IMG/VR virus record: IMGVR_UViG_3300045988_179014
Span: 64,001-128,000 of that record
Length of the DNA: 64,000 nucleotides
DNA from: a virus
Direction: 5' to 3' (one strand)
This document shows, piece by piece, positions 14,832 to 40,464 of this stretch; positions within the stretch are counted from its first letter, which is position 1, and each line of letters starts with the position of its first letter. The notes under the pieces are model-generated. The model made no database searches. It worked only from the letters and a program-made list of their open reading frames with translations, and was not told where the DNA came from. The position numbers and the translations under genes were made by a program.

Positions 14832-16322
14832 TCAGGATTCTTCAACTGGAACATCAAAAACTTCGTCACCAACAGACAATTGATGAATATAACGTTTCAC
14901 AGCTTTGGGTTTCCCTTCATCTGTTCGTTTGACCACACCTTTTTGTCCAGACACGATAATTCGTTCACTCGAACCATCTTCATATGTCAGTTGATAGGTG
15001 GCTCCACGTCCAGCCGATAAGAAGCGTTCAAAAATGAGGTCATGTTCAATGGGGTCAATTTCGGAAATTCCCAACTCATATGCGTGAATGGACCCACCAA
15101 TGGACCCACGACCCACACCAATGGAGGATGCCAAGATTTCATCTCCTTTGCCTTTGGTGGAGTATAGGTCACGGGTATGCACCAAATAGTCTCGCACCAC
15201 CAACATGTATCCAATGAAATCTGATGAGTGGATAACTTCAAACTCATGCTTATTGCGACGCATGGCTTCTTCCTGAATTTCTCGTGGTTTCCCGCCATAA
15301 CGTTGCTTGAAACCTTCCTTCAACAGATGACGGTAATATTCCACTTCATCATGGAATTCAGGTGGAATAACTGGTCGCGGTTTCAGATGCGGATTGAAGT
15401 TCAAGCTGATATCTGAAGCCATTTCAGTAATTGCCAACGAATTGGTCAAAGCGTCAGGAAACTCATCAGGTGGAAACAATGCTGCCATTTCTTGAGCTGA
15501 TTTCAGATAGTATTCATCCCCACTGAATGCGAATCGTCGTCCACCTTCATCATAAGTCGCATCAGACATTCGTGAACCAGATTGGACACACAACATTTCT
15601 TCATGTGCTTTGAAGTCTTTCTTGTGCGCATAATGGCAATCATTTGTCACCAACAGAGGCAATTGAAGTTTTCGAGCCATTTCCAATTGTTTTGGCAATA
15701 ATGCTCGTTCCAAATCAATTGGCATGTTGTGGTCCATTATCTCCATGAAAAGTTTGTCTTGGAAAACTTCTTTCAGCTGATTGGCATGGTTGTATGCTTG
15801 TTGGTCTTGTCCCAACAGGAATCTGGTGCTGATTTCTGATGATGGACAGCCTGTTGCCACCACCAATCCTTCAGCATGGTCTGCTAACATGCCAAAATCA
15901 ATTCGTGGTCTCTGGAAAAAATGTGCCGGGTCGTTTGAAAGAGTGGACAGTTTGAACAGATTTGTCAATCCCACATTGTTGTAAGCCCATACTGTAATGT
16001 GAAGATAGGCCCCACCTGCTGACACATCATTGGCCGCCCCGCGTTTACCATTATTGCCATAGAACACAGGTTCCAACAATTTGGCTCCTTCTGGATTCAC
16101 AGGCGCCATGTAAAATTCGCAGCCGGGAACGGGAATCATACCAGCGTCACGTACTTTCTTGATGAATCCATAAAGACCGAACACATTTCCATGGTCTGAT
16201 TGTCCCAACCCACGCATACCAAAATCTGATGCCACTTGAATGTATTCAGAATCCTTGGAATAACCATCCAACATGGAATTATGAGTATGTGTATGAAGTG
16301 AAACATATTCTGGTTCAGTCAT
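14832..16322 (-). CDS. dnaE: DNA polymerase III alpha (DnaE-type) N-terminal part: PHP domain plus first part of palm
   Basis: N-terminus HTHTHNSMLDG (PHP). GYMLVVRDY...GVGRGSIGGSIHAYELGISEIDPIEHDLIFERFL aligns to E. coli GYFLIVADFI...[34 protein letters not shown]. The ORF ends about 55 aa after FERFL, before the catalytic aspartates. Confidence 0.85.
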   Translation of the reverse strand: MTEPEYVSLHTHTHNSMLDGYSKDSEYIQVASDFGMRGLGQSDHGNVFGLYGFIKKVRDAGMIPVPGCEFYMAPVNPEGAKLLEPVFYGNNGKRGAANDVSAGGAYLHITVWAYNNVGLTNLFKLSTLSNDPAHFFQRPRIDFGMLADHAEGLVVATGCPSSEISTRFLLGQDQQAYNHANQLKEVFQDKLFMEIMDHNMPIDLERALLPKQLEMARKLQLPLLVTNDCHYAHKKDFKAHEEMLCVQSGSRMSDATYDEGGRRFAFSGDEYYLKSAQEMAALFPPDEFPDALTNSLAITEMASDISLNFNPHLKPRPVIPPEFHDEVEYYRHLLKEGFKQRYGGKPREIQEEAMRRNKHEFEVIHSSDFIGYMLVVRDYLVHTRDLYSTKGKGDEILASSIGVGRGSIGGSIHAYELGISEIDPIEHDLIFERFLSAGRGATYQLTYEDGSSERIIVSGQKGVVKRTDEGKPKAVKRYIHQLSVGDEVFDVPVEES

Positions 16323-17605: not shown

Positions 17606-19330
17606 TTATAGCATGTCTTGATGGAAACGTGTATAAACATGTTTGACTTTACCCGAATCCCAAACTTTGCTCAAACCGTTCAATTCCGCCAATTCAGATT
17701 CGGTCAAATCATCCTGCCACAACAATTCCGGGTCCTTCATGAAACGCTGTTTACGGAAATTGAACTTGTGATATCGCGTGTTGCCATAAATGTAGCAATA
17801 GTCTGGTGGCAATTCTTTCTCAACCACAAACCCAGTCATGGTGTAAAGTTTTCCATCACTGATTTCATTGTCACTGAAAGTTTCCACAATGGATACATCA
17901 GGGTTCAATTCAAGAAAAGCGTGCAACAGTTTACTGAACCCACCAGGAATAATTCGTGATGTACAAAAACGGTGAAGAACAACAGTGCCTTGTTTGCCTT
18001 GTCGTGGGGAGAGTAACATAACTGCGACCAATTCTTCATCCGCGAACAAACCAAGATTATGTTTAGCTCCCACCCCTCCCTGTATGTGATGAGAGATGCA
18101 AAATTCTTTAGCCATAGAACTCTTGATTGTTTCCACATGACATTTTCGAGCACCCGTTTTAGGTAGTGAAGACAATCCTAGTTTCGTCAGTATCATTTGT
18201 TTCACAATTTCAGGATGTTGCTGCCAGTCATCTTCCCAGATTTGCAACAATTGGATTCCCGTTTTTCTGCATTCTCTCCATTTGTTGTAATGGTACCATT
18301 TGGTTTTTCCAGCGGTCTCAGAATGCCAATATAATCCATTGTATTCAATAGCAACATTGAAATCAGGTAAAAATATGTCCAGTTCTTTCCCGGACAGCAA
18401 TTTACGGTCATGACGAACCATAACACTGCCAGATGGAAGATGGGTTTGAATGAAATCCGCTATCTCGTCTTCGCCTTGGGAGCTTTGAGGATAACATTGA
18501 GGACATCGGGACTGATTTATGGTTCGATGAAAAATCAATGATTCCCATTCATGTCCTTGTTCGCACACCCAGCTACCACGCACACAGGAAGAAGGTAGAT
18601 AATTACTCAAAGGGTGGGAATTTTTAGTAGACCATTCAGCTGCTAAATGAGGGAACAATGAAGCTGCATCCGTTTTTCCGGGGTCTGCTTTGATTCCTCG
18701 ACAGTATGGACAAGCATCAATCATTTTGGTAGCAATACGTTGGTGAAGGCTGTATTGCCAACGATGGTTGCTATTTTTGCGACAAACCCATTCAACTTGT
18801 GTACGATACTCTGGTAAAGGCGACGCCCAAATTGTTTCAACAGGCCAAGGGTTTTCTGGTGAATATTCTTCTGCTATTTCAGGATATACGCTTTTCAGGT
18901 CATTTATACCAGTGACTTTCTTGTGTTTACTGCATAAAGGGCATCGACGACCCAACAGTATCAAAGCTTTTGGGGTTTGAGAATATTCATGACCTTGAGC
19001 ACATTGTAGTAAAAACCTCTGTGAACGATTTCCACGTGATACTTTACTAGGGTCCAACATATTATTTGGGTGAAGCAACGGAAGAATGTCAGGGTCAGTG
19101 GTGGCAACATCATTGAATCCTGTCAAAACGCGTCGTCCAGAACAATACGGGCACCCCAACCCTCTGTTGATTCTTAATCCCACAATCATGTCATATGAGT
19201 GGCCTCGCGGACATATCCATGCACATGTCTTACTGCTCCCAACCGATTCAGGGTCAATTGATTGTTCAGGGTCCCATTCTGACCAAACTTCTGGGTAGTC
19301 TTTGGGAAGATTGACAGGTTTGCTAGGCAT
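17606..19330 (-). CDS. zinc-ribbon-repeat (DUF4379-like) protein with Vsr/DUF559-like endonuclease-type domain and conserved C-terminal domain; putative homing endonuclease
   Basis: Repeated W-x-C-x2-GH-x-W ... GCPYC-x-N-x-KVL-x-GFNDL units. Middle motif IEYNGLYWHSE...QLLQIWEDDW. Real start is probably the ATG at 19330, which has GGAGG 7 nt upstream; the track ATG at 19360 lies inside the tmRNA terminator loop. Confidence 0.6.
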   Translation of the reverse strand: MPSKPVNLPKDYPEVWSEWDPEQSIDPESVGSSKTCAWICPRGHSYDMIVGLRINRGLGCPYCSGRRVLTGFNDVATTDPDILPLLHPNNMLDPSKVSRGNRSQRFLLQCAQGHEYSQTPKALILLGRRCPLCSKHKKVTGINDLKSVYPEIAEEYSPENPWPVETIWASPLPEYRTQVEWVCRKNSNHRWQYSLHQRIATKMIDACPYCRGIKADPGKTDAASLFPHLAAEWSTKNSHPLSNYLPSSCVRGSWVCEQGHEWESLIFHRTINQSRCPQCYPQSSQGEDEIADFIQTHLPSGSVMVRHDRKLLSGKELDIFLPDFNVAIEYNGLYWHSETAGKTKWYHYNKWRECRKTGIQLLQIWEDDWQQHPEIVKQMILTKLGLSSLPKTGARKCHVETIKSSMAKEFCISHHIQGGVGAKHNLGLFADEELVAVMLLSPRQGKQGTVVLHRFCTSRIIPGGFSKLLHAFLELNPDVSIVETFSDNEISDGKLYTMTGFVVEKELPPDYCYIYGNTRYHKFNFRKQRFMKDPELLWQDDLTESELAELNGLSKVWDSGKVKHVYTRFHQDML

Positions 19331-19331
19331 G

Positions 19332-19371
19332 AAAAAACCTCCGATACAACGCTTAAACATTATACCGGAGG
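19332..19371 (-). terminator. rho-independent terminator of tmRNA (stem cctccg/cggagg, 22-nt loop, U6)
   Basis: On the minus strand: ...cagctccacgaa CCTCCGgtataatgtttaagcgttgtatCGGAGG TTTTTTC ATG. The 3' stem half also serves as the SD for the next gene. Confidence 0.55.
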
Positions 19372-19376
19372 GTTCG

Positions 19377-19738
19377 TGGAGCTGACGGGATTCGAACCCG
19401 TGTCTTGACAGTCATACACTTGAAATCTACAAACATAGTGACGGTTAAAAATTTTATGATAAACCTTCCTATAACCGTCACCAAAGTGTTGGAAGGGTGT
19501 TATCACAGTCCAAATAAGCTGGTTTCTTCACAGACTGATAGAAGAGCAGCGATTCCCTGAACGACACTGGATTCACAGGAACGGGAATCAGTTTCCTGTG
19601 CCAGTGGATTACACAGCTAGGGTGTAATCATCTTGGATAGCATTGGCAGCTATTTTTGCGAGCCTGTTTTACACCTCTTACTCAAAGGTGGTTTGCCTTC
19701 ATAATGTATTTAACTTTCAATCGATACCATTCAGCCCC
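19377..19738 (-). ncRNA. ssrA: tmRNA (ssrA), ~362 nt, CCA not encoded
   Basis: 5' end GGGGCTGAATGGTATCGATTG matches E. coli GGGGCUGAUUCUGGAUUCGAC. 3' end ACGGGTTCGAATCCCGTCAGCTCCA matches GCGGGUUCAACUCCCGCCAGCUCCA. The acceptor pairs. Tag ORF after GCAAAAATAG reads GCC AAT GCT ATC CAA GAT GAT TAC ACC CTA GCT GTG TAA = (A)NAIQDDYTLAV*. Confidence 0.8.
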
Positions 19739-26793: not shown

Positions 26794-26880
26794 TATACAC
26801 CTCCTGGATTTTTAGTATTCTAGACCCATAATCGACAAAAACCACATAGAGTTCAATCCATGTGGCTGTTTGTACTATAG

Positions 26881-26951
26881 CTGGGGTAGCAGGAATCGAA
26901 CCTACATTTCCGCATCCAAAGTGCGGCGTGATGCCGTTACACCATACCCCA
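26881..26951 (-). tRNA. tRNA-Gln (TTG)
   Basis: Starts TGGGGTA and ends TACCCCAG (U1:A72, as in E. coli tRNA-Gln); anticodon ccgca-ctTTGga-tgcgg. Confidence 0.75.
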
Positions 26952-26958
26952 ATAATAA

Positions 26959-27035
26959 TGGAGCCCCCTGTGAGATTCGAACTCACGACCTTTCGCTTAC
27001 AAGGCGAATGCTCTAACCAGCTGAGCCAAGGAGGC
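26959..27035 (-). tRNA. tRNA-Thr (TGT), CCA encoded
   Basis: gcctcct tg gctc agctggttagagc, ttcgc-ctTGTaa-gcgaa, T gtgag-ttcgaat-ctcac, agggggc t cca. Confidence 0.75.
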
Positions 27036-27039
27036 ATTG

Positions 27040-27113
27040 AAGACAGAGAACAATTCGTTGATAGTAATTAATATTGTTAATTGTGAAGTAACCATCAACT
27101 TCACTTCTGTCTT
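27040..27113. repeat. ~75-nt palindromic structured element, copy A (outer stem aagacaga/tctgtctt, inner hairpin gtgaagt-aaccatca-acttcac)
   Basis: Second copy at 31593..31667 has outer stem aagataga/tctatctt (compensatory C>T and G>A). Confidence 0.6.
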
Positions 27114-27187
27114 GGAGCGGATAACGGGATTCGAACCCGTACTAACAGTTTGGAAGACTGGTGTGCTGCCTTTGACACTACATCCGC
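27113..27187 (-). tRNA. tRNA-Gly (TCC), CCA encoded
   Basis: gcggatg, anticodon cagt-ctTCCaa-actg, T acggg-ttcgaat-cccgt, tatccgc t cca. Compare E. coli Gly(UCC) loop ccTTCCAAg. Confidence 0.7.
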
Positions 27188-27346
27188 AAGCGTACTGGTT
27201 GTTTCCTGGAGCCAGTACATAAAAACCGTATCACTTTGCGACAGTGACAGGAAACACGGTCGAACCCAACACTCAGATGCGGTTGAGTTGATGATTACAT
27301 CTGTTGGTTCTTTTTTAAATCAGGTCGCAACTGACCGCACCCAATG

Positions 27347-27419
27347 TGGACCAGAAGGGAATCGAACCCTCAGCCTCTTGTCTGCCAGACAAATGCTCTA
27401 CCAATTGAGCTACCAGCCC
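27347..27419 (-). tRNA. tRNA-Ala (GGC), G3:U70
   Basis: gggctgg ta gctc aattggtagagc, tttgt-ctGGCag-acaag, T gaggg-ttcgatt-ccctt, ctggtcc a. Confidence 0.7.
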
Positions 27420-27425
27420 TTATCG

Positions 27426-27498
27426 AGCGGACAACGGGACTCGAACCCGTAACCTTTACCTTGGCAAGATAATGCTCTACCAATTGAGCTATGTCCGC
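27426..27498 (-). tRNA. tRNA-Gly (GCC)
   Basis: gcggaca ta gctc aattggtagagc, ttatc-ttGCCaa-ggtaa, T acggg-ttcgagt-cccgt, tgtccgc t. Confidence 0.75.
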
Positions 27499-27505
27499 AT
27501 AACAA

Positions 27506-27586
27506 CATTGATTGCAGAGTTTCTAAGAGCCAATGGGGGCCTTAGCGTTAGCGACGCCCATTCCCGACGCACCCTGCAATCAATGC
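27506..27586 (-). ncRNA. candidate structured RNA: 12-bp perfect closing stem (cattgattgcag/ctgcaatcaatg) around a ~56-nt GC-rich interior
   Basis: Inverted repeat seen directly; the interior contains further complementary segments (aatggg/cccatt). Lies between tRNA-Gly(GCC) and the Y-RNA-like element. Confidence 0.35.
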
Positions 27587-27606
27587 GTTACCCAACCTAC
27601 GTTGGA

Positions 27607-27715
27607 GATGAAAGATTAACACCTTATGCCACTATTGGGAATCGAACCCAAGCCGCTCCTTTTCCGAGGAGTATTCTCCCATTAAAATATGGGACACAAA
27701 GGTTAATCTTTCATG
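27607..27715 (-). ncRNA. candidate Y RNA (YrlA-like tRNA mimic): long terminal stem formed by the 5' and 3' ends enclosing a tRNA-like domain with a canonical T-arm
   Basis: On the minus strand: catgaaagattaacctttgtg ... tcccat-atttta-atggga ... ctcc-tcggaaaa-ggag ... cttggg-ttcgatt-cccaa tagtggca taaggtgttaatctttcatc. The 5' gaaagattaacc pairs with the 3' ggtgttaatctttc. No 7-bp acceptor stem and no anticodon arm, so it is not a tRNA. An Rsr/Ro60 homolog lies 2 kb away in the same array. Confidence 0.45.
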
Positions 27716-27761
27716 ATTGTTTTGGCAGTACCTATTCTGCCATTGAACTAAAACACTAAGT

Positions 27762-27801
27762 GAAGGTAACTGTCCGAAACCTGCCAATAACAGTTACCTT
27801 C
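27762..27801. other. 12-bp perfect hairpin (gaaggtaactgt/acagttaccttc, 16-nt loop) between tRNA-like elements
   Basis: Seen directly; no clear U-tract, so it is possibly a processing or structural element. Confidence 0.4.
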
Positions 27802-27803
27802 CG

Positions 27804-27876
27804 AGCCGCCATCGGGAGTCGAACCCGAGACCTCTTTCCTACCAAGAAAGTGCTCTACCAACTGAGCTATAACGGC
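27804..27876 (-). tRNA. tRNA-Thr (GGT)
   Basis: gccgtta ta gctc agttggtagagc, ctttc-ttGGTag-gaaag, T tcggg-ttcgact-cccga, tggcggc t. Confidence 0.75.
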
Positions 27877-27893
27877 AGATAATTATTATTCCG

Positions 27894-27969
27894 AGCCATC
27901 TATGGGATTTGAACCCATGACTTCCCCATTACGAGTGGGGTGCTCTACCAAAAACTGAGCTAAGATGGC
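27894..27969 (-). tRNA. tRNA-Thr (CGT)
   Basis: gccatct ta gctc agtttttggtagagc, cccca-ctCGTaa-tgggg, T atggg-ttcaaat-cccat, agatggc t. Confidence 0.75.
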
Positions 27970-27978
27970 AACATTTGG

Positions 27979-28052
27979 CGCTCCTAGTAGGACTCGAACC
28001 TACACTCAATGGTTTAGGAAACCATGACTCTATCCTATTGAGCTATAGGAGC
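27979..28052 (-). tRNA. tRNA-Arg (CCT)
   Basis: gctccta ta gctc aataggatagagt, atggt-ttCCTaa-accat, T gtagg-ttcgagt-cctac, taggagc g. Confidence 0.75.
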
Positions 28053-28065
28053 CCATAGATTGTTG

Positions 28066-28139
28066 TCTGGGAGGTAGGATTTGAACCTACGACTTCTCGC
28101 GTCCGAGGCGAGCGACCTACCAAACTGGCCTACACCCAG
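28066..28139 (-). tRNA. tRNA-Pro (CGG), C1:G72
   Basis: ctgggtg ta ggcc agtttggtaggtc, ctcgc-ctCGGac-gcgag, T gtagg-ttcaaat-cctac, ctcccag a. Confidence 0.7.
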
Positions 28140-28166
28140 ATATTTGGTAATTTGCTGTTTACTAAG

Positions 28167-28240
28167 TGGCCCCGGTGGGACTCGAACCCACACTGTACAG
28201 GTTTTGAAGCTGTCCCCTCTACCAATTGGGGTACGGGGCC
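28167..28240 (-). tRNA. type-I (short variable arm) tRNA with leucine anticodon CAA (reads UUG), A73; isotype uncertain
   Basis: ggccccg ta cccc aattggtaga gggg, anticodon arm acagc-ttCAAaa-cctgt (4 bp plus a C:C), variable acagt (5 nt), T gtggg-ttcgagt-cccac, cggggcc a. The body resembles Bacillus tRNA-Trp. The alternative TCA reading does not form a stem. Confidence 0.5.
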
Positions 28241-28276
28241 ATTGACCATAATATAAGTTCGTAGTTTTTATGATAG

Positions 28277-28349
28277 TACCCCGAACGGGATTTGAACCCG
28301 TGTTACCGCCTTGAAAGAGCGGTGTCCTAGGCCACTAGACGACCGGGAT
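28277..28349 (-). tRNA. tRNA-Glu (TTC)
   Basis: atcccgg t cgtc tagtggcctaggac, ccgct-ctTTCaa-ggcgg, taac, acggg-ttcaaat-cccgt, tcggggt a. Close to E. coli tRNA-Glu. Confidence 0.75.
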
Positions 28350-29143
28350 ATGTAGGAGAGTTAGAATTGCTCTCCTAATGACAACCTTTTGCTGGATTAT
28401 GGTTTCCCAGCGTTTCCACGATGTCCCCACCGTAGTTGCCGCGCCTGGTTGCTATGGACCAACCACTCCTTATGTCGTACACTACTCCACAGATTTGGTT
28501 TCGACAAGCGGTTGCAAGCCGCTCATCTGCACTACTTTCTTATGAACACAGTTTGACCTTGCGAGTCGCACCATGGCTGAGTTCCGGAATACGGCTCAGC
28601 ATTAAGACGCTTTCATATACAACAGGAAAAGGCTTTTGCTTTCTGCTAATCTCTCATTCCACGAATGAATATGGGGTATGACTAGAGATGTGCTTTTCCA
28701 TGAAGTTCCGCAACCTTTTGGGCTACAGAATGCTTCACACCTCTACTGCTTTCGTTGTCACACTACTTACAGTCTCGTTCTCATCTTGAACTCGCCAATC
28801 CAAGACTTAAACTCATGGTATCCGCTCTTGCTTGACAGGCTCGAACTAAATACCTCGCATCACAAGTCATTTATCCTTGTTGTTTGTCTTCTCTGTCCAC
28901 TTTGCGTAAGTGGCTGTGCTACACCGATTGGCTCTCGCACAGATGAAGCAACTCGGATAAATGGCATCCTACTCCTTTTGTAGAATGCGCCTTGGTGCAG
29001 TGCATGAAGTGCCTCTTGCGAGGTGGCAGGCTGTCAAACCCACCTTTCGCCATCTTGCGATGGTTTATGCGTCATGCCGCGTCGTCAGGGAAGAAGTTTT
29101 GACACTTCATGATACAGAAATCATTCATCTACATGATTCCCTG
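28350..29143 (-). ncRNA. ~800-nt ORF-free, GC-elevated, hairpin-rich segment inside the tRNA array: candidate large structured noncoding RNA (class unknown; strand assumed from neighbours)
   Basis: No minus-strand ORF of 60 aa or more; the plus-strand ORFs here overlap in three frames with no RBS. Many local inverted repeats (e.g. aggagag-ttagaattg-ctctcct, aagcgg-ttgcaa-gccgct, tggctgagttccgg/ccggaatacggctcagc). Bounded precisely by tRNA-Glu and the tRNA with anticodon TAG. Confidence 0.4.
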
Positions 29144-29218
29144 TTATGTAATGTGCCCTTGAGAGGACTCGAACCTCCAACCTTCTGAGTCTAAGTCAGA
29201 TGCCTCTACCAGATTGGG
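29144..29218 (-). tRNA. type-I tRNA with leucine anticodon TAG (reads CUA/CUG), A73
   Basis: gcccttg ta gccc aatctggtag aggc, clean anticodon arm tctga-ctTAGac-tcaga, variable aggtt (5 nt), T ggagg-ttcgagt-cctct, caagggc a. 75 nt, no long variable arm. Confidence 0.6.
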
Positions 29219-29386
29219 CTACAAGGGCATTAATATTCCTTGGTATTCACTGATTACTCTCGCTATAAAAACAAGAATAATCAGTGAACCAAGTAGCTAG
29301 ACTTATAGGGGCTACCCCGGCTAGCACCATGCGTTAGGGAGACCAACCAAGTTGACCTCCCCCTCAATGAGGACCTGAATCCTCAG

Positions 29387-29473
29387 CGGAGACGGCAGGA
29401 TTCGAACCTGCGGAAGGGATTGACCTTCACCCGCTTTCCAAGCGAGCGCTTTAGGCCTCTCAGCCACGTCTCC
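29387..29473 (-). tRNA. tRNA-Ser (GGA), long variable arm
   Basis: ggagacg tg gctg agaggcctaaagc, ctcgc-ttGGAaa-gcggg, variable tgaaggtcaatcccttc, T cgcagg-ttcgaat-cctgc, cgtctcc g. Confidence 0.7.
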
Positions 29474-29640
29474 ATTTAAGACTCTCTCTGAAGTTATCAT
29501 TTTCATGGTAGTTGTTGCTACTACTTTACCAGCTTAACCCATGGATTCCAATTTGTCAAATCGAGGTATTCCTCCAAACTTGGTCCATTCTTCAGTTGGT
29601 TTTACCAGTTTAACACACCTTTGAAAGCTATGTCAACTAG

Positions 29641-29732
29641 TGGCGGAGGACAAGGGAATCGAACCCTTACCGGAGTTGAATCCGGCCCTGTTTTCAAGAC
29701 AGGTGCAGCAACCCAATATCTGCCTGTCCTCC
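29641..29732 (-). tRNA. tRNA-Ser (TGA), long variable arm, CCA encoded
   Basis: ggaggac, cctgt-ctTGAaa-acagg, variable gccggattcaactccggt, T aaggg-ttcgatt-ccctt, gtcctcc g cca. Confidence 0.7.
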
Positions 29733-29791
29733 ATGGAGTTGTTGAATCAGTATACCATAGATTACACATTGATTCAACAACCACTATTGTT

Positions 29792-31375
29792 TTACTTTTC
29801 CCAAGGCCAACCAGTATCGAATCCTCTTTCAATGAGAGGAATCGTCTGGAACCCCTTATCAGACAATCCACCAAACGTGAATCGTCCGGGTTTATTGACA
29901 GCTTGTGCAGCTTCGTATCCAGCAAGATTCCAGGTAAAGGTTGGAACATTTGTTGGAACAACACCTTCAAATACGTCCACTGTACCACTATTGTAGTAAC
30001 GATTGTATCCAAAATAACCGTTCTGCTCATCGGTCAATAGGATTACTCTATCATGACCATTGTAGGCAGTTTCCAACGCAATACGTGTGTCAGTACCTCC
30101 AAAAGGCGCTGGCATGGCTTCTGCTACTCGAAGTAGGTCGTTTGAACGAATTTCCTGTTTCGTTGCCGAATCGTTGTACGTCCATACTTCTGCATTTTCC
30201 GCTCGCAGTGCTAGAGCAGCTGCAAACATATTAGCTGCATCTGAACGCAGTAATGTGCCTCTTCTTGACATATACGTATACATGGAACCGGAATTGTCAA
30301 CCAGAATAAGTGTACGTCCTGCCAATTGAGGAATATTGGATAGAGCGCCATTCGCCCCTTGTTGAAGCGCACCTGCAAAATCAAGCGGAGCTGACCGGTA
30401 AGCAGCCAAAAATTCTATAGGCATGGTGCGAGAATTTGCTACCAGTTTTTCATCTGCCAAAATGCTGTTGATTTTAGCAATAGTAGCAGGGCCAACACCT
30501 GAATCTGCAATACGACGTAAGTTCATACGCAACGCTTGATACCCCATGAAGGGAACGAGATTATCCCATACTTCAGCAGGAATCTTCCCCAAAGCTCCTG
30601 CCACAACTTCATGAGTCAACCGCGCTTTTCGGATGACGCGTTCAGCTTCATTCCCCGTTAGAAGTTCAACCTGTGCAGTCTTACTCAATGCCAAGAATTC
30701 ACGTCGTGCTTTGATGATGGGAAGGTTGCTGTCATCAAAATCGCGATTGTATGCATCAGCAATAACTGCATTGAATAAAGCTTCTTGGTGGATATCCTTT
30801 GGTGTGGGATGTGTCAGGTTTAACACATCTCGAAGTGACACAGCACCATTGGAAGCACGTCCACGCCACTTCAAAAAGGAAGTCTCGGTAAATAGGGTAT
30901 TCAGTGCATCTCCAACCCCACGTTTGACACATGAGGGGATACGGCGTCCATATCGAGACATCCAATACGCCAATACATCTGACGCTTCATCAATACGACC
31001 AATAGTAGCTCGTATAATGCCACGGTTCTTTCCAGCCAGTCCAGCATCCAACCGTGCTTTTACTGTTTCCACCGCAATAATGGTTGGGACTGAACGCAAT
31101 CCTACAACATTCCGTAGCCAACCGACTAAACCATGAACCCAATCAGCATCCATGGCAACATTGGATACTAATTTACTAATACGGTCTTGTCGTTCTTCTG
31201 CGGTTTCATAAAATGTGTCCTCATTGAGTGAAGTTACTGCGGTCAAGAACAGCTCGGAACGAGGGTCACGCTTATACCCAAATCCCCCTTCAGGATTTTG
31301 AATAACTTGACCAGTTGTTGATAATGGTCCTACAACATTCCGAACCTTCGTATTAGCATTGTTTAAACGAGCCAT
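29792..31375 (-). CDS. rsr: Ro60-related protein Rsr (TROVE domain plus von Willebrand A domain)
   Basis: 527 aa. C-terminal vWA with MIDAS TLILVDNSGSMY; N-terminal TROVE-like region. Size and architecture match bacterial Rsr. RBS AAAGAGAGG before the ATG. Confidence 0.65.
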   Translation of the reverse strand: MARLNNANTKVRNVVGPLSTTGQVIQNPEGGFGYKRDPRSELFLTAVTSLNEDTFYETAEERQDRISKLVSNVAMDADWVHGLVGWLRNVVGLRSVPTIIAVETVKARLDAGLAGKNRGIIRATIGRIDEASDVLAYWMSRYGRRIPSCVKRGVGDALNTLFTETSFLKWRGRASNGAVSLRDVLNLTHPTPKDIHQEALFNAVIADAYNRDFDDSNLPIIKARREFLALSKTAQVELLTGNEAERVIRKARLTHEVVAGALGKIPAEVWDNLVPFMGYQALRMNLRRIADSGVGPATIAKINSILADEKLVANSRTMPIEFLAAYRSAPLDFAGALQQGANGALSNIPQLAGRTLILVDNSGSMYTYMSRRGTLLRSDAANMFAAALALRAENAEVWTYNDSATKQEIRSNDLLRVAEAMPAPFGGTDTRIALETAYNGHDRVILLTDEQNGYFGYNRYYNSGTVDVFEGVVPTNVPTFTWNLAGYEAAQAVNKPGRFTFGGLSDKGFQTIPLIERGFDTGWPWEK

Positions 31376-31440
31376 GATAACCTCTCTTTACGGTTTATAC
31401 AGGGGATATCGCTGGTGTTTTGAATCCACTGAGAACCAGC

Positions 31441-31486
31441 AAAACAAATACTGTTTGCCATAATTCTGGTCAGTATTTGTTTATTA
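31441..31486. terminator. hairpin (caaatactg/cagtatttg) flanked by aaaa and tttatt; bidirectional terminator-like element between tRNA-Asp and rsr
   Basis: Seen directly. Confidence 0.45.
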
Positions 31487-31504
31487 CATCAGGGATTGAT
31501 TTTG

Positions 31505-31578
31505 CGACCCGTACCGGACTCGAACCGGCGACCTCTGCCGTGACAGGGCAGCGCTCTAACCAACTGAGCTAACGGGCC
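31505..31578 (-). tRNA. tRNA-Asp (GTC)
   Basis: ggcccgt ta gctc agttggttagagc, ctgcc-ctGTCac-ggcag, T gccgg-ttcgagt-ccggt, acgggtc g. Confidence 0.75.
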
Positions 31579-31592
31579 ATATTTTGTATTAC

Positions 31593-31667
31593 AAGATAGA
31601 GAATAATTTGTTGATGGTGGGTTAATATTGCGAATTGTGAAGTAACCATCAACTTCACTTCTATCTT
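31593..31667. repeat. ~75-nt palindromic structured element, copy B
   Basis: See copy A at 27040..27113. Both copies sit immediately 5' (in minus-strand sense) of a tRNA gene. Confidence 0.6.
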
Positions 31668-31725
31668 GTGTAGTTCTATAGTCAATTATTCAACACAAAT
31701 CAACATGTGTAGAAATATGTTGTTG

Positions 31726-31811
31726 TGTCCATGATGGGAGTCGAACCCACACGCCCTTACGGACACTGCGCCCTCAACACAGCCTGTCTACCAAATTTCC
31801 AGCACATGGAC
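31726..31811 (-). tRNA. tRNA-Leu (GAG), canonical type II
   Basis: gtccatg tg ctgg aaatttggtagac, ctgtg-ttGAGgg-cgcag, variable arm tgtccgtaagggcgtg (compare E. coli tgtccttacggacgtg), T gtggg-ttcgact-cccat, catggac a. Confidence 0.7.
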
Positions 31812-31936
31812 AAAATAATATATTAATTAATCTTAATAATTCTATGTTATTGTAACAATACCTTATCTGTTTTCAATAAAGCTTGTACATTGAAAATTGC
31901 TTTATTGACCATTGTTCTTTTTTTTACTAGTTTGGG

Positions 31937-32009
31937 TACGGATGACTGGATTCGAACCAGTGACCTTTTCCGCGTCATGGAAATGCTCTACCAACTGAGC
32001 TACACCCGC
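31937..32009 (-). tRNA. tRNA-Val (GAC)
   Basis: gcgggtg ta gctc agttggtagagc, tttcc-atGACgc-ggaaa, T actgg-ttcgaat-ccagt, catccgt a. Confidence 0.75.
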
Positions 32010-32889: not shown

Positions 32890-32965
32890 CACCCTCGGTG
32901 GGACTCGAACCCACATCAATCCAATTATGCGCTGCCCGCTTAGAAGGCGGTGCCAGTACGAGGGC
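32890..32965 (-). other. aberrant tRNA-like gene with Arg anticodon TCT: acceptor, anticodon arm and T-arm present, no D-arm; 21-nt insert between anticodon arm and T-arm
   Basis: gccctcg ta ctggca ccgc-cTTCTAa-gcgg gcagcgcataattggattgat gtggg-ttcgagt-cccac cgagggt g (76 nt). The loop matches E. coli Arg(UCU) ccTTCTAAg. Confidence 0.4.
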
Positions 32966-33138
32966 ATGTTTTCATATGTTGGCGACTTGTCGGGTCTCTC
33001 ACCCGAAGCTCTGGAGTACAAGTCCAGTGTGTTCTTCCCAGAATAGATGACACAAACCACTTTTTCTGGTAGTTCTAGTCCTTGAGGAAGAATTTTGTGC
33101 TTCTTCCTCATTCTGCTAGACCTTACACCATCGCGTCG

Positions 33139-33212
33139 TCGGGAAGACAGGATTTGAACCTGCGACTTCTGGTACCCAAAACCAGCGCTCTACCAAACTG
33201 AGCTACATCCCG
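33139..33212 (-). tRNA. tRNA-Pro (TGG), C1:G72
   Basis: cgggatg ta gctc agtttggtagagc, ctggt-ttTGGgt-accag, T gcagg-ttcaaat-cctgt, cttcccg a. Confidence 0.7.
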
Positions 33213-33255
33213 GTATTTAAGAATATTTTATTGTAAATTATCAGACTAAATTCAG

Positions 33256-33328
33256 CACGACAGGAGGGATTCGAACCCCCATCTAACACTTTTGGAGAGT
33301 GTCGCTCTACCAATTGAGCTACTGTCGT
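33256..33328 (-). tRNA. tRNA-Trp (CCA)
   Basis: acgacag ta gctc aattggtagagc, acact-ctCCAaa-agtgt, T ggggg-ttcgaat-ccctc, ctgtcgt g. Confidence 0.75.
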
Positions 33329-38323: not shown

Positions 38324-40464
38324 TTAAGTAATGTTCAATACCCATCGTGTTTTTCCAGAGTCCCATACACGCGGAAGACGATTCAACCGAGCCAATTCAC
38401 TCTCAGACAAGGAATCATTCCACAGCAAGTTTGCATCTTCACGAAACTGTTCTCTTCTGAATCGAAACTTGTGCACCCGGCGACCTTGCGCCACATAAGA
38501 ATAATCAGAGCTGAGTTCTTTATCTGTCACAAAACCCAATGATTTATACATGCTACCATTGCTGACATCATGAGCAGAGAAAGTGACGATTTGGTTGATT
38601 CCTTCAATTACGCACCATTTTCTGACGTATTCAAGCATCTTCCCCAATCCGCCCATCACAATACAAGACGTGGCATATCGGTCCAACACCAAACTCTGAT
38701 TCCTGCGACTCCAAACGGAAACCGCCACTAAACCATCCTGTTCAGTTTTCAACCCCAAATACAATGAGCCAGTGGTAGTTCCCTGAATATGATAAACATT
38801 CAAAAAATCAGATACATCAGTATATTGCAAAACTACAACTTTAGTTTTTCTCGCAGCTATCCTTTTGCTCTCATTCAGTCCCAGTTTGTGTTGTATCATA
38901 GATTTGATGATAGAAGAACGATAACACCAATCATCCTCCCAAACCTGCAACAATTGAATGCCTTTTCTTTACACAATCGCCATTTCATCGAATGATAGTT
39001 TTTGTCTTTACCATTGGTGTCAGAATGCCAATGCAAACCATTGTATTCAATAGCAAAATTCTTTGATGGTATATAAACATCCAGTTCATACGGTGGAATA
39101 ACAGCACGAGTATTGCTAACAACAGAATCCTCATCACCCAACAATTGTTTCACAAACTCTTGAAGTTCTTTCTCAGCTCTGGACGTGAATGAACCAGCCA
39201 CACAATCAGGACATTGACTATTGTAAAAATTACGTGCATTGACTCTTGCACACCACACATGGCCTTTACTGCATTTCCACCAGATTTTGTGATTGGAACC
39301 AGCAGTTACTTCCTCAGGGGTCAAGGAATTGAGTTGGTTGTCCCATTCCTGCGCTAAATGAGGATTAATAGTCGCCAAATCATTGAAACCAGGAACAACA
39401 ACACGATTATTACAAACAGGACACAACTGCATTGATGAGTGAACAGCTTTTTTAATAGATTGTGTCCATTGGTGACCAAGTGAACATTTCCAGTGAACTA
39501 TTTCCCGTGAATTGGGATACACAGCATAGGGATTCAATGGCTGATTAAGTTCCATATCCCAAAAACTCATCAATTCAGGACAACAAACACCCAAGCTCTT
39601 CTCTCTTGGTGCTATCGTGGATTTTTGTACAACACAATATGGGCATTTGGTTCTTTTATTGACACGTTGTTTAACAGTAGCCACCCATAAATGCCCCTCA
39701 GAACATTTCCAATGAACACGAATTTGCTGTGACGGTTTAATCATGGATGGATTGATGTCAGTATTGAGAGCATAATCCCATTCATTCAACAGCTCTGGAT
39801 ACAAAGTCGCAAAATCATTCACACCCACCACTAATTTATGATTACTGCATACCGGACATTTAGTATTTCGTTTAGTACGTTGCGAAACCGGTGCCATCCA
39901 TGTGTGTCCATTCTTGCACCACCAGTAAACCTTGACGCTGGAATTAGCAGTCACATCATTAGGCGATAAGGAATGATTCTGTTCATAATCCCACTCAGAT
40001 GCAATCACTGGATGAGTAATGTTCAAAGTATTGACATTTTGTTCTGGAAGCTTACCTTGACATATTGGGCATGAGCCGCTTTTAATCCGGTGTTTCACTC
40101 CCATGACATATTCATGACCTGATGAACAAATCCAATGGAAACGTTTTGAGTTGGTTCTAGCAACTTGTCCAAAAGGGATTCCATTCATGTTCTCATCCCA
40201 TTCTGACAACAAATGAGGGTATCGAACATCCAATCTTTCTGATGGTGGTCCCAATCTTGCGCACAATGGACAACTACTGCCATTGACTCGGTTACGGACA
40301 GAAGCCATCCACTTGTGTTGACAATGATGACAAACCCAACCCACTTTTTCAATCGTCCCAGCTGAATAATCGGATGGAGTGTGCTTGTTGATAGTCGTGT
40401 CCCATTCCATCAACAACTGAGGAGCCACATCCGTGAGTGAACGTTTGGGTTGAGGTTTACGCAT
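38324..40464 (-). pseudogene. frameshifted member of the zinc-ribbon-repeat/endonuclease-like family (track ORFs 38896..40464 and 38324..38953 belong to one gene)
   Basis: Upstream ORF ends ...KWRLCKEKAFNCCRFG and downstream ORF begins MLQVWEDDWCYRSS. The intact paralog reads ...KWKQCHDKQVQLLQIWEDDWCYRSS. Frame change near an A-run (gtaaagaaaaggcattcaattg; plus 38951-38972). Confidence 0.55.

What the first reader, a model, noticed from the sequence alone, without database searches (positions are those of the whole stretch)
27607..31375. Rsr/Ro60 homolog embedded in the tRNA array, with a candidate YrlA-like Y RNA nearby
The 527-aa TROVE+vWA protein (MIDAS DNSGSM) at 29792..31375 has the architecture of bacterial Rsr, and tRNA genes abut it directly on both sides. 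Bacterial Rsr works with Y RNAs (YrlA) that are modular tRNA mimics, with a long stem formed by the 5' and 3' ends plus a tRNA-like domain containing a T-arm. The element at 27607..27715 has exactly that layout. It has about 14 bp of pairing between its ends (gaaagattaacc / ggtgttaatctttc), two internal hairpins, and a perfect T-arm (cttggg-ttcgatt-cccaa). It has no 7-bp acceptor stem and no anticodon arm, so it is not a tRNA. An adjacent 12-bp-stem element (27506..27586) could be a second RNA partner. A phage-borne Ro60 RNP module inside a tRNA operon would be a notable system.
Basis: partly seen in the sequence, partly recalled or inferred. Interest (0 to 1): 0.75.

Follow-up and report, generated by a model that had tools for sequence, protein, structure and literature searches.

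The report
Phage Ro60 gene with Y RNAs

Summary
The sequence features are real. ORF 29792..31375 (-) is a Ro60/Rsr homologue: it passes Pfam TROVE, matches Thermus phage phiRo60 (E 3e-26), and its model's 13 best fold matches are all Ro60/Rsr. It sits in a same-strand array of 40 tRNAs.

Element A (27607..27715, -) is a very stable RNA (z = -6.0): a 21-bp terminal helix encloses a tRNA-like core.

A is probably not the Y RNA. It gets no hit from Rfam YrlA. Its arm order is D-anticodon-T, not the permuted T-acceptor-D of YrlA. It lacks the Ro60-binding module found next to this Rsr family in 83 of 85 sources.

A covariance model of that module, built only from other phages, hits the window twice: 31593..31667 and 27040..27113. 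Both are on the rsr strand, packed between tRNAs. A degraded third copy lies in the rsr leader (31427..31494).

A belongs to a small family of apparently tRNA-Phe-derived RNAs with a 6-nt or truncated "anticodon" loop and compensatory stem changes. Its link to Rsr is unproven.

Ro60 genes with Y RNAs in phages, including inside tRNA arrays, are already published and annotated. This is a new member of a known kind. A GOLLD RNA lies downstream of rsr here and in three relatives.

The parts
29792..31375 (-). rsr: Ro60/Rsr homologue, 527 aa. TROVE/HEAT-repeat ring plus a C-terminal vWA domain with MIDAS motif DNSGS.
   Evidence: Pfam TROVE 27.8 bits (cut-off 23) and vWA_Ro60 18 bits. Matches PDB 9KOP/9L5Y, Thermus phage phiLo Ro60, at E 2.9e-26. 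AF2 model has mean pLDDT 83.6. The 13 best Foldseek PDB matches are all Ro60/Rsr, with TM (normalised to query/target length) 0.55-0.72. 969 homologues found.
31593..31667 (-). Y RNA 'Y-up', YrlB-like with no tRNA domain. Stem1 AAGAUAGA/UCUAUCUU, 5'-strand motif GAAGUGAAG, stem2 UUGAUGG/CCAUCAA, loop starting UUACUUC, 3'-strand motif UUAUUCUC. Lies between tRNA-Leu(gag) and tRNA-Asp, 218 nt upstream of the rsr ATG.
   Evidence: Model R2, built from 37 modules of other loci, scores it 37.3 bits, E 1.6e-7 and 1.3e-8 with filters off. MFE z = -5.3. Aligns with the 'distal' Y RNAs of L081 and L083.
27040..27113 (-). Y RNA 'Y-down', a paralogue of Y-up. Its stem1 AAGACAGA/UCUGUCUU differs from Y-up by a compensatory U-A to C-G change. 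It starts at the A of the encoded CCA of tRNA-Gly(tcc) and ends 4 nt before tRNA-Thr(tgt).
   Evidence: R2 scores it 39.8 bits, E 3.5e-8. Sequence read. 100% identical in L001.
31427..31494 (-). rsr leader: probable degraded third Y module. It is the positional orthologue of the 'proximal' Y RNA of L081, L083 and L084. It keeps CUGA...GCUGGUUCUCAG but has lost 2 nt of the GAAGUG motif and reads AAUACUG instead of GUUACUU.
   Evidence: Alignment A6. Not detected by R2 at E <= 10. Stem2 is predicted by folding. 100% identical in L001.
27607..27715 (-). A 21-bp terminal helix (27714..27695 with 27628..27608) replaces and extends the acceptor stem. It has a D-like region, an anticodon-position arm with a 5-bp stem and 6-nt loop CGGAAA (27671..27656), and a canonical T arm (27651..27635).
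   Evidence: Fold z = -6.0. Rfam tRNA 25.3 bits, below 29, and no YrlA hit. ARAGORN does not call it. Homologous cores found in related phages, with covariation.
27506..27586 (-). Element B: a stable branched hairpin with a 15-bp stem. Function unknown. Found only in the near-identical relative L001. Not a Y module.
   Evidence: MFE -36.3, z = -4.7, and weaker on the plus strand. BLAST finds it only in L001. R2 scores it 4.8 bits, E 4.2.
31504..31578 (-). tRNA-Asp(gtc), between Y-up and the rsr leader.
   Evidence: ARAGORN; Rfam tRNA 68.3 bits.
27113..27187 (-). tRNA-Gly(tcc), whose encoded CCA end abuts Y-down.
   Evidence: sequence.
28357..28745 (-). GOLLD RNA, conserved 3' domain. The whole RNA probably fills the 803-nt gap 28350..29152. 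It is a neighbour in the same transcription direction and is syntenic with rsr in relatives.
   Evidence: Rfam RF02032 scores 222.8 bits against a gathering score of 150. GOLLD also lies downstream of rsr in L001, L081 and L083.

Best explanation
This is a phage Ro60 (Rsr)-Y RNA ribonucleoprotein module embedded in the tRNA operon of an uncultured jumbo phage.

Shown:
- The ORF encodes a Ro60-fold protein.
- Two canonical short Y RNAs, at 31593..31667 and 27040..27113, are encoded on the same strand within 2.7 kb of rsr. They are YrlB-like: terminal stem, conserved internal-loop motifs GAAGUG / UUACUUC / UUCUC, second stem.
- A degraded third copy lies in the rsr leader.
- All are packed between tRNA genes.

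Inferred:
- The array is transcribed as a polycistron. No minus-strand terminator-like site was found in the scanned 26800..32000 stretch around rsr.
- The Y RNAs are released by the tRNA-processing enzymes. 3' processing of the upstream tRNA would make the Y RNA 5' end. RNase P cleavage at the next tRNA would make its 3' end.
- Rsr binds the conserved internal loop and stem. As in D. radiodurans, Salmonella and Thermus phage phiLo, the Y RNA then bridges Rsr to a host 3'-5' exoribonuclease (PNPase).
- This would tune decay or quality control of structured RNAs while the phage floods the cell with about 40 tRNAs, a tmRNA and a GOLLD RNA.

It is a tRNA-derived RNA, apparently tRNA-Phe-derived, that cannot decode. 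It has a 6-nt 'anticodon' loop, and a 21-bp helix takes the place of the acceptor stem.

Its most likely fate is excision from the transcript as a stable tRNA-shaped RNA. The 21-bp helix is long enough for RNase III, and the tRNA-like core could be recognised by RNase P. It would then act as a tRNA mimic. A role with Rsr is possible but has no positive evidence.
For: Protein:
- Pfam TROVE above cut-off.
- phiRo60 match at E 2.9e-26 over residues 27-452.
- AF2 pLDDT 83.6. The top 13 PDB fold matches are all Ro60/Rsr.
- Cultured-phage homologues are annotated as Ro-like RNA binding protein.

Y RNAs:
- Model R2 was trained without the window or L001. It hits the window exactly twice, both on the rsr strand, at E 3.5e-8 and 1.6e-7.
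- Across 85 sources, 125 hits are all on the rsr strand. 83 of 85 sources have at least one hit.
- 108 of the 123 hits in loci lie within 700 nt upstream of rsr.
- Stem1 is 97.2% paired with a covariation score of 0.915, against at most 0.256 for slid controls.
- In high-GC relatives the same module encloses a permuted tRNA-like domain that Rfam YrlA recognises (L042, 38.5 bits, E 4e-7).
- The two window copies differ by a compensatory pair. The changes between Y-up and its L001 copy fall in the apical loop and at a family-variable motif position.

Packing and transcription:
- Tight tRNA-Y-tRNA packing is read directly. The same packing occurs in L012, L031 and L081.
- Terminator-like sites do not exceed chance, and none is on the minus strand.

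Element A:
- No YrlA hit and sub-threshold for tRNA. No R2 hit.
- Homologous cores with ordinary acceptor stems occur elsewhere in related arrays: L038:950-1019 at 40 bits, L002, L081:2111-2183.
- Stems show compensatory changes while the 'anticodon' arm shrinks to GNRA-like mini-hairpins.

Mechanism from the literature: Chen 2014 (PMC4201824), Hu 2025 (PMC12135203), Iyer 2021 (PMC7824862).
Against: - No expression, processing or binding data exist for this uncultured phage. PNPase tethering is taken from other systems.
- The exact GNCGAAN0-1G motif of Chen et al. is not present. The window reads GAAGUGAAG. The equivalence rests on my alignment of the module across clades (A3/A4).
- R2's training sequences were picked with a motif regex, and its E-values come from a shortened calibration.
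- vWA_Ro60 is below Pfam's cut-off in this protein.
- Element A shares the overall layout that Chen et al. describe for D. radiodurans Yrn1: a 5'/3' stem, an anticodon arm with a 6-nt loop, and a T arm. A divergent Rsr-binding mode therefore cannot be excluded.
- A lies within 4 kb of rsr on the same strand. 16 of the 19 viral contigs that carry A-like cores also hold rsr or belong to an rsr-bearing lineage. This association is confounded by shared ancestry.
Confidence: 0.8

Rival explanations
1. One reading: element A (27607..27715) is a Y RNA. Rsr would bind its long terminal stem, and the tRNA-like domain would play the role it plays in YrlA or Yrn1.
For: - It lies 2.1 kb downstream of rsr on the same strand, within the 4-kb criterion of Chen et al..
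- It has a very stable terminal stem plus a tRNA-like core with a perfect T arm.
- Its layout (terminal stem, D-like region, 5-bp arm with a 6-nt loop, T arm) matches the published description of D. radiodurans Yrn1.
- The short Y RNAs of this clade lack a tRNA domain in cis, so a trans partner is conceivable.
- A-like cores are found mostly in rsr-bearing contigs.
Against: - No Rfam YrlA hit at E <= 10.
- The arm order is not the YrlA permutation.
- No trace of the Ro-binding module that is conserved across 83 of 85 sources, with filters off.
- Canonical Y RNAs already account for Rsr's partner.
- Homologues of A in relatives have ordinary acceptor stems. They lie 5-8 kb upstream of rsr, not at a fixed place.
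- The long stem is specific to the window/L001 lineage.
- A is no better conserved against L001 (96.3%) than the spacers (95.5%).
Confidence: 0.12
2. Element A is a decaying tRNA pseudogene, a duplicate of tRNA-Phe, with no function of its own. The long helix and the neighbouring hairpins are only processing or RNase III sites of the polycistronic transcript.
For: - The anticodon loop resembles that of tRNA-Phe minus one base (C-G/U-GAA-A). Within the window, the real tRNA-Phe is one of the better partial matches of the A model (21.2 bits).
- The anticodon arm shortens stepwise among close relatives.
- The array holds other defective tRNA-like genes, for example the D-armless 32890..32965.
- Long hairpins are common between genes here: 24 bp at about 29232..29300, 15 bp in element B, 13 bp at 27760..27800.
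- Conservation against L001 is at the background level.
Against: - Across relatives the D, T and anticodon-position stems keep pairing through compensatory changes. 9 of 14 pairs change on both sides, 90% of cells are paired, and covariation is 0.458 against at most 0.14 for slid controls.
- Indels are confined to the anticodon arm, and every variant still closes into a small GNRA-like hairpin.
- Both stem substitutions in L001 preserve pairing as G-U.
- A perfect 21-bp helix around a pseudogene needs selection or very recent origin.
Confidence: 0.25
3. Element A is a functional tRNA mimic that works independently of Rsr. It could be a decoy or competitor for host tRNA-binding factors such as anticodon nucleases, modification enzymes, RNase P or the CCA-adding enzyme. 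It would resemble the stable non-tRNA RNAs in the T4 tRNA cluster (recalled from memory).
For: - The elbow (D-loop GG, T-loop UUCGAUU) and the stems are conserved while decoding capacity is lost.
- Related arrays carry tRNA-maturation genes. A CCA-adding-type PolyA_pol and a TilS-like ATP_bind_3 lie near rsr in L081 and L084.
- Similar anticodon-less tRNA-like genes occur in other phage contigs, where no rsr was seen in the fetched stretch (L094, L098, L099).
Against: No target can be named. No experimental or contextual link points to any defence system. Only short stretches of the rsr-negative contigs were fetched, so absence of rsr there is not shown.
Confidence: 0.2

Closest known systems
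Bacterial and phage Ro60 (Rsr) with YrlA/YrlB Y RNAs (Chen et al. 2014, RNA 20:1715, PMC4201824; Rfam RF02553)
   Same: A Ro60-fold protein. Y RNAs lie on the same strand within 4 kb. They have a terminal stem with a conserved 5'-strand purine-rich motif. Multiple Y RNA copies occur per locus. Distant relatives of this same protein family have bona fide YrlA-type RNAs with a permuted tRNA domain directly upstream.
   Different: The window's Y RNAs are the short YrlB-like form without a tRNA domain. The motif is GAAGUGAAG rather than GNCGAAN0-1G. They are wedged between real tRNA genes. The protein is only 36-39% identical to its best full-length (at least 95% coverage) cultured-phage homologues.
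Thermus phage phiLo phiRo60 with Yrl1/Yrl2 (Hu et al. 2025, NAR, PMC12135203; PDB 9KOP, 9L5Y)
   Same: The closest solved structure (E 2.9e-26, TM 0.64-0.72). It is phage-encoded, and short Y-like RNAs are encoded next to the gene. It is reported to form complexes with host PNPase.
   Different: About 24% identity. The phiLo Yrl RNAs were defined by a CGAA motif upstream of the gene. In my text search of that paper for 'tRNA', no passage described a tRNA array around the gene. Whether the window's RNP also attenuates PNPase is untested.
Arthrobacter phage Atuin and Streptomyces/Gordonia phages with an annotated 'Ro-like RNA binding protein'
   Same: The Ro-like gene is embedded in a large same-strand tRNA array. 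Model R2 finds five unannotated Y modules interleaved with the tRNAs in Atuin.
   Different: 39% identity, actinobacterial hosts, high-GC Y RNAs that include YrlA-sized ones. GOLLD was not looked for in that locus.
D. radiodurans Yrn1 (as described in Chen et al. 2014)
   Same: This comparison concerns element A only. Both have a long stem formed by the 5' and 3' ends, a T arm, and an 'anticodon arm' with a 5-bp stem and a 6-nt loop, in tRNA order rather than permuted.
   Different: No Rsr-binding motif is recognisable in A's stem.
tRNA (Rfam RF00005), specifically tRNA-Phe(GAA)
   Same: Element A has a D-loop AAUGGGA with GG, T arm GGGUUCGAUUCCC, a 4-nt variable region and a 5-bp anticodon-position stem. 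Its loop C-G-GAA-A resembles CU-GAA-AA.
   Different: A 6-nt loop. No 7-bp acceptor stem with a free end; instead a continuous helix of at least 21 bp. 25.3 bits, below the 29-bit gathering score. Not called by ARAGORN.

Membership tests
Ro60 / Rsr (TROVE + vWA ring protein): ORF 29792..31375 | TROVE (HEAT-repeat) domain | tested here: met
   Pfam PF05731 scores 27.8 bits against a cut-off of 23, although only residues 267-328 match. A full-length fold match to Ro60 structures, with the top 13 hits all Ro60/Rsr and TM (normalised to query/target length) 0.55-0.72.
Ro60 / Rsr (TROVE + vWA ring protein): ORF 29792..31375 | C-terminal von Willebrand A domain with a MIDAS DxSxS motif | tested here: met
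   DNSGS at about residues 360-364 aligns to DVSGS of phiRo60. D360, S362 and S364 are invariant in 22 homologues. Pfam vWA_Ro60 is sub-threshold here (18 against 27.7) but is recorded for many homologues. The model shows a beta-alpha-beta fold at residues 354-518.
Ro60 / Rsr (TROVE + vWA ring protein): ORF 29792..31375 | Cognate Y RNA encoded nearby on the same strand | tested here: met
   R2 hits at 31593..31667 and 27040..27113. The same association holds in 83 of 85 sources.
Ro60 / Rsr (TROVE + vWA ring protein): ORF 29792..31375 | Binds Y RNA on the outer surface and single-stranded RNA ends in the central cavity | not testable with these tools
   Needs EMSA, RIP or a solved structure.
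Bacterial Y RNA, short YrlB-like form: 31593..31667 and 27040..27113 | Stem formed by the 5' and 3' ends, supported by covariation | tested here: met
   An 8-bp stem1 in both copies. The family alignment is 97.2% paired, 6 of 8 pairs have compensatory changes, and covariation is 0.915 against at most 0.256 for slid controls.
Bacterial Y RNA, short YrlB-like form: 31593..31667 and 27040..27113 | Conserved Ro60-binding motif on the 5' strand (GNCGAAN0-1G in Chen et al. 2014) | tested here: inconclusive
   The window has GAAGUGAAG. It aligns column for column with GGUGCG(C/A)AG of the YrlA-bearing relatives (A3). The literal published motif is not matched.
Bacterial Y RNA, short YrlB-like form: 31593..31667 and 27040..27113 | Within 4 kb of rsr on the same strand | tested here: met
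   One copy lies 218 nt upstream and the other 2.7 kb downstream. Both are on the minus strand.
Bacterial Y RNA, short YrlB-like form: 31593..31667 and 27040..27113 | Physically bound by Rsr in vivo | not testable with these tools
YrlA (Rfam RF02553): element A 27607..27715 | Match to the YrlA covariance model | tested here: not met
   No RF02553 match at E <= 10 in 27480..27810. The model does detect a relative's YrlA (L042, 38.5 bits, E 4e-7). In the window it gives only tRNA-dimer false positives.
YrlA (Rfam RF02553): element A 27607..27715 | Permuted tRNA-like domain: T arm, then a closed acceptor hairpin, then the D arm | tested here: not met
   The order in A is D-like, anticodon-position arm, T arm.
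YrlA (Rfam RF02553): element A 27607..27715 | Ro60-binding module in the terminal stem | tested here: not met
   R2 finds nothing on A with filters off at E <= 10.
YrlA (Rfam RF02553): element A 27607..27715 | Same strand as rsr and within 4 kb | tested here: met
   2.1 kb downstream of the rsr stop, on the minus strand.
tRNA: element A 27607..27715 | Cloverleaf reaching the curated score, with a 7-nt anticodon loop and a 7-bp acceptor stem with a free 3' end | tested here: not met
   Rfam tRNA 25.3 bits, below 29, covering model positions 7-64 only. Not called by ARAGORN. The loop is 6 nt. The acceptor position is occupied by a 21-bp helix.

The most novel reading that the evidence does not exclude
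Element A and its relatives could be a new class of phage tRNA-Phe-derived, non-decoding tRNA mimics with a GNRA-like capped 'anticodon' stem. In this reading they work in trans with the Rsr-Y RNA particle and supply the tRNA-like module that YrlA carries in cis. More broadly, the conserved rsr-Y RNA-GOLLD neighbourhood could mark a functional link between Ro60 surveillance and the giant cage-forming GOLLD RNA.
Probability: 0.1. Interest if true: 0.7.

Novelty: new member of a known kind. Interest (0 to 1): 0.35.

Why it matters
The result corrects the annotation. The Ro60 partners in this phage are two short Y RNAs punctuated by tRNAs, not the tRNA-like hairpin that caught the eye.

It shows that the Ro60-binding module is conserved from actinophage YrlA to low-GC jumbo-phage Y RNAs. 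That gives a usable covariance model for annotating Y RNAs that GenBank phage records currently omit; Arthrobacter phage Atuin has five.

It supports the view that giant phages co-express RNA-surveillance machinery with their own tRNA sets.

Two leads may deserve experiments. One is a family of anticodon-less tRNA mimics. The other is the conserved rsr-GOLLD linkage in one phage clade.

Tried and rejected
1. Rfam at gathering thresholds, on the window and 15 loci, gave only tRNA, tmRNA and GOLLD. YrlA appears only below its 69-bit threshold.

2. Model R1, built from element A plus its L001 copy, found no second long-stem copy anywhere. It found only tRNA-like cores and real tRNAs.

3. In the L002 group, a CCGAA-containing stretch (GGGUGACCGAAUGAGUAUGGUGAG) lies just 5' of the A-like core and looked like a Ro-binding site. 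I rejected it as a conserved feature. The L081 equivalent reads GACCGCC, and R2 does not hit there.

4. Element B's GGUGCGUCGG looked like the actinophage GGUGCGCAGG motif. R2 gives it 4.8 bits, which is noise, and B has no homologue outside L001.

5. The rsr leader (31427..31494) looked like a Y module by eye. It is not detected by R2. I kept it only as a degraded positional orthologue, on the strength of alignment A6.

6. The window-versus-L001 conservation comparison has too little divergence to show selection on A or B.

7. The promoter and terminator scan gave nothing above chance.

8. A nucleotide search of cultured phages found no close relative, only a 72-nt tRNA-sized match.

9. A tRNA-type cloverleaf with an extended acceptor for A evaluates at -30.4 kcal/mol against an MFE of -42.4. 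The fold of the D region stays undecided.

Full report
**Observation**

The window carries 40 tRNA genes and a tmRNA, all on the minus strand. Inside this array, ORF 29792..31375 (-) encodes 527 aa.
- tRNA-Ser(tga) ends 59 nt after its stop.
- tRNA-Asp lies 128 nt before its start.

- On the minus strand it folds at -42.4 kcal/mol, against -23.5 +/- 3.2 for shuffles (z = -6.0, 0 of 200).
- It is less stable on the plus strand (-36.8).
- It has a 21-bp terminal helix with one bulged U.
- It has a D-like region.
- It has a 5-bp stem with a 6-nt loop (CGGAAA) at the anticodon-arm position.
- It has a canonical T arm.

The Rfam tRNA model aligns its D, anticodon and T arms at 25.3 bits, below the 29-bit threshold. 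ARAGORN does not call it. The neighbouring 27506..27586 element is also a stable hairpin (z = -4.7).

**The protein is a Ro60/Rsr homologue**

- Pfam TROVE passes its cut-off (27.8 against 23). vWA_Ro60 is sub-threshold.
- The best solved relative is phiRo60 of Thermus phage phiLo (PDB 9KOP/9L5Y, E 2.9e-26). The alignment places DNSGS on the MIDAS DVSGS.
- An AlphaFold model (mean pLDDT 83.6) finds only Ro60/Rsr structures among its 13 best PDB matches. These are phage, Xenopus, human and D. radiodurans proteins, with TM (normalised to query/target length) 0.55-0.72.
- There are 969 homologues, many on contigs of 100-400 kb.
- The best full-length (at least 95% coverage) cultured-phage relatives are 36-39% identical. 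They are annotated 'Ro-like RNA binding protein' in Arthrobacter, Streptomyces and Gordonia phages.
- In Arthrobacter phage Atuin the gene sits inside a tRNA array, just as here.

**Where the Y RNAs really are**

I fetched 80 viral loci encoding relatives and four closer contigs.

In high-GC relatives, the 300 nt upstream of rsr hold one to three tandem RNAs of the form CCCGGUGCGCAGG - stem - UACUUC ... stem' - UUGAUCUCGGG. They come in two versions:
- a short version;
- a version enclosing a V arm, T arm, closed acceptor hairpin and D arm. This is the permuted tRNA domain that defines YrlA (Chen et al. 2014, PMC4201824).

Rfam's YrlA model (RF02553) recognises one of these at 38.5 bits, E 4e-7.

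Low-GC relatives have the same module with GAAGUG/GAUGCG, GUUACUU and UGGUUCUC.

I aligned 37 such modules, none from the window or its near-identical relative L001. The terminal stem shows compensatory changes at 6 of 8 pairs. From this alignment I built model R2.

R2 hits the 64-kb window exactly twice, both on the rsr strand:
- 27040..27113 at 39.8 bits, E 3.5e-8;
- 31593..31667 at 37.3 bits, E 1.6e-7 (the same two hits with filters off).

Across 85 sources, R2 gives 125 hits, all on the rsr strand.
- 83 of 85 sources have at least one hit.
- 108 of the 123 hits in loci lie within 700 nt upstream of rsr.
- On the alignment of all hits, stem1 is 97.2% paired. Its covariation score is 0.915, against at most 0.256 for slid controls.

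The two window copies are paralogues that differ by a compensatory pair in stem1.

Y-down begins at the A of the encoded CCA of tRNA-Gly(tcc) and ends 4 nt before tRNA-Thr. Y-up lies 14 nt before tRNA-Asp.

The rsr leader (31427..31494) aligns as the positional orthologue of the 'proximal' Y RNA of L081, L083 and L084. It has lost part of the motif, and R2 does not detect it.

**What element A is**

A gets no YrlA match at E <= 10 and no R2 match. Its arms are in tRNA order, not the YrlA permutation.

A model of A (R1) finds homologous cores in related arrays:
- L038:950-1019 (40 bits), L002, L003, L009, L010 and others;
- L081:2111-2183, which ARAGORN calls a tRNA of undetermined identity (printed 'tRNA-???') with 'anticodon' gaaa.

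These homologues have ordinary acceptor stems. They lie 5-8 kb upstream of rsr.

They share the D loop UUUAAUGGnAGAA and the T arm. Their anticodon-position arm carries a 6-nt loop (CGGAAA, CUGAAA) or is cut down to CUU-GAAA-AAG or CUU-GGAA-AAG. They cannot decode.

The loop resembles that of tRNA-Phe minus one base.

The three stems keep pairing through compensatory changes. 90% of cells are paired, 9 of 14 pairs change on both sides, and covariation is 0.458 against at most 0.14 for slid controls. This argues against a freely decaying pseudogene.

The 21-bp helix is specific to the window/L001 lineage. The four differences from L001 include two A-to-G changes that keep stem pairs as G-U.

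Overall identity of A to L001 (96.3%) equals the spacer background (95.5%), while tRNAs are at 98.8%.

Pattern scans of viral contigs found A-like cores in 19 contigs.
- 13 of them are known rsr contigs.
- Three more hold rsr or belong to the L002 lineage.
- These contigs are phylogenetically related, so this is weak evidence of linkage.

A's layout resembles what Chen et al. describe for D. radiodurans Yrn1.

**Mechanism**

Shown:
- a Ro60-fold protein;
- two Y RNAs with the family's conserved module;
- tight tRNA-Y-tRNA packing;
- no minus-strand terminator-like sites in the scanned 26800..32000 stretch around rsr.

Inferred:
- polycistronic transcription;
- release of the Y RNAs by the tRNA 3'- and 5'-processing enzymes;
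- Rsr binding to the conserved internal loop and stem;
- Y-RNA-mediated coupling to host PNPase, as in D. radiodurans and Salmonella (Chen 2014) and in phage phiLo, where the complex attenuates PNPase (Hu et al. 2025, PMC12135203).

Iyer et al. (PMC7824862) already list TROVE proteins with a tRNA-like partner in a subset of jumbo phages.

For A, I propose excision through its long helix and/or by RNase P, followed by action as a tRNA mimic. This is inference only.

**Novelty and verdict**

A phage Ro60-Y RNA module, including placement inside tRNA arrays, is published and annotated. This is a new member from an uncultured jumbo-phage clade.

The modestly new items are:
- a cross-clade model of the Ro-binding module;
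- the tRNA-punctuated arrangement of the Y RNAs;
- the family of anticodon-less tRNA mimics;
- the conserved rsr-GOLLD synteny.

Interest 0.35.

Noticed in passing
window 28357..28745 (-), probably the whole 28350..29152 gap; also L001:8633-9019, L081:13058-13480, L083:5901-6330: A GOLLD RNA (Rfam RF02032, 222.8 bits) sits in the tRNA array about 0.6-1.5 kb downstream of rsr. It is in the same relative position in the three closest relatives with enough sequence. In L081 and L083 it encloses a tRNA. It is absent from 11 more distant rsr loci that I scanned. I found no paper linking Ro60 and GOLLD.
   Followed up: partly
window 19374..19738 (-): A phage-encoded tmRNA (Rfam 111 bits) with tag peptide ANAIQDDYTLAV, at the edge of the tRNA region.
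   Followed up: no
window 32890..32965 (-): A further defective tRNA-like gene that ARAGORN did not call. It has an acceptor stem, an anticodon arm (loop CUUCUAA), a long variable region and a T arm, but almost no D arm. Rfam tRNA scores 29.8 bits. A weaker fragment lies at 32990..33053.
   Followed up: partly
window about 29232..29300 (-), and 27716..27802 (-): Very long perfect hairpins lie between tRNA genes: about 24 bp just upstream of tRNA-Leu(tag), and 13 bp plus 6 bp hairpins upstream of element A. They may be RNase III or processing sites of the polycistronic transcript.
   Followed up: no
L002:683-830, L038:905-1064, L087, L097 (related phages): In the L002 lineage the A-like tRNA mimic is preceded by GGGUGACCGAAUGAGUAUGGUGAG, which recalls the vertebrate Y RNA Ro-binding sequence UGGUCCGAAGGUAGUGAGU (quoted from memory). 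It is not conserved in L081 (GACCGCC) and is not hit by the Y-module model. It is probably a coincidence, but it is unexplained.
   Followed up: partly
L104 (Arthrobacter phage Atuin OK040794.2): 4446-4515, 6748-6820, 6900-7043, 7052-7192, 7200-7264: Five Y-RNA modules are interleaved with tRNAs around the annotated Ro-like gene. None is annotated in the GenBank record.
   Followed up: partly
window 27367..27478 and 33157..33307 (-): The only sub-threshold Rfam YrlA matches in the window (29.3 and 27 bits) span adjacent tRNA pairs. They combine the T arm of one tRNA with the D arm of the next. This is the dimeric-tRNA false positive that Chen et al. warned about.
   Followed up: yes
window 14832..16322 (-) and 10604..13360 (-): DNA polymerase III alpha appears split into two ORFs. 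One holds the PHP domain plus the first part of the core. The other holds the rest of the core, the finger and the HhH domain. A clamp-loader subunit lies between them at 13718..14815.
   Followed up: no
window 17606..19360 (-) and 38896..40464 (-): Two large ORFs are made of repeated DUF4379 treble-clef zinc-finger units (4 and 6 repeats). They flank the tRNA region.
   Followed up: no
L081:6432-7874, L084:308-1747, L081:5083-6036: The closest relatives encode a PolyA_pol-family (CCA-adding-type) nucleotidyltransferase and a TilS-like ATP_bind_3 protein within the same tRNA array, a few kb upstream of rsr. I did not find them in the part of the window that I scanned.
   Followed up: no
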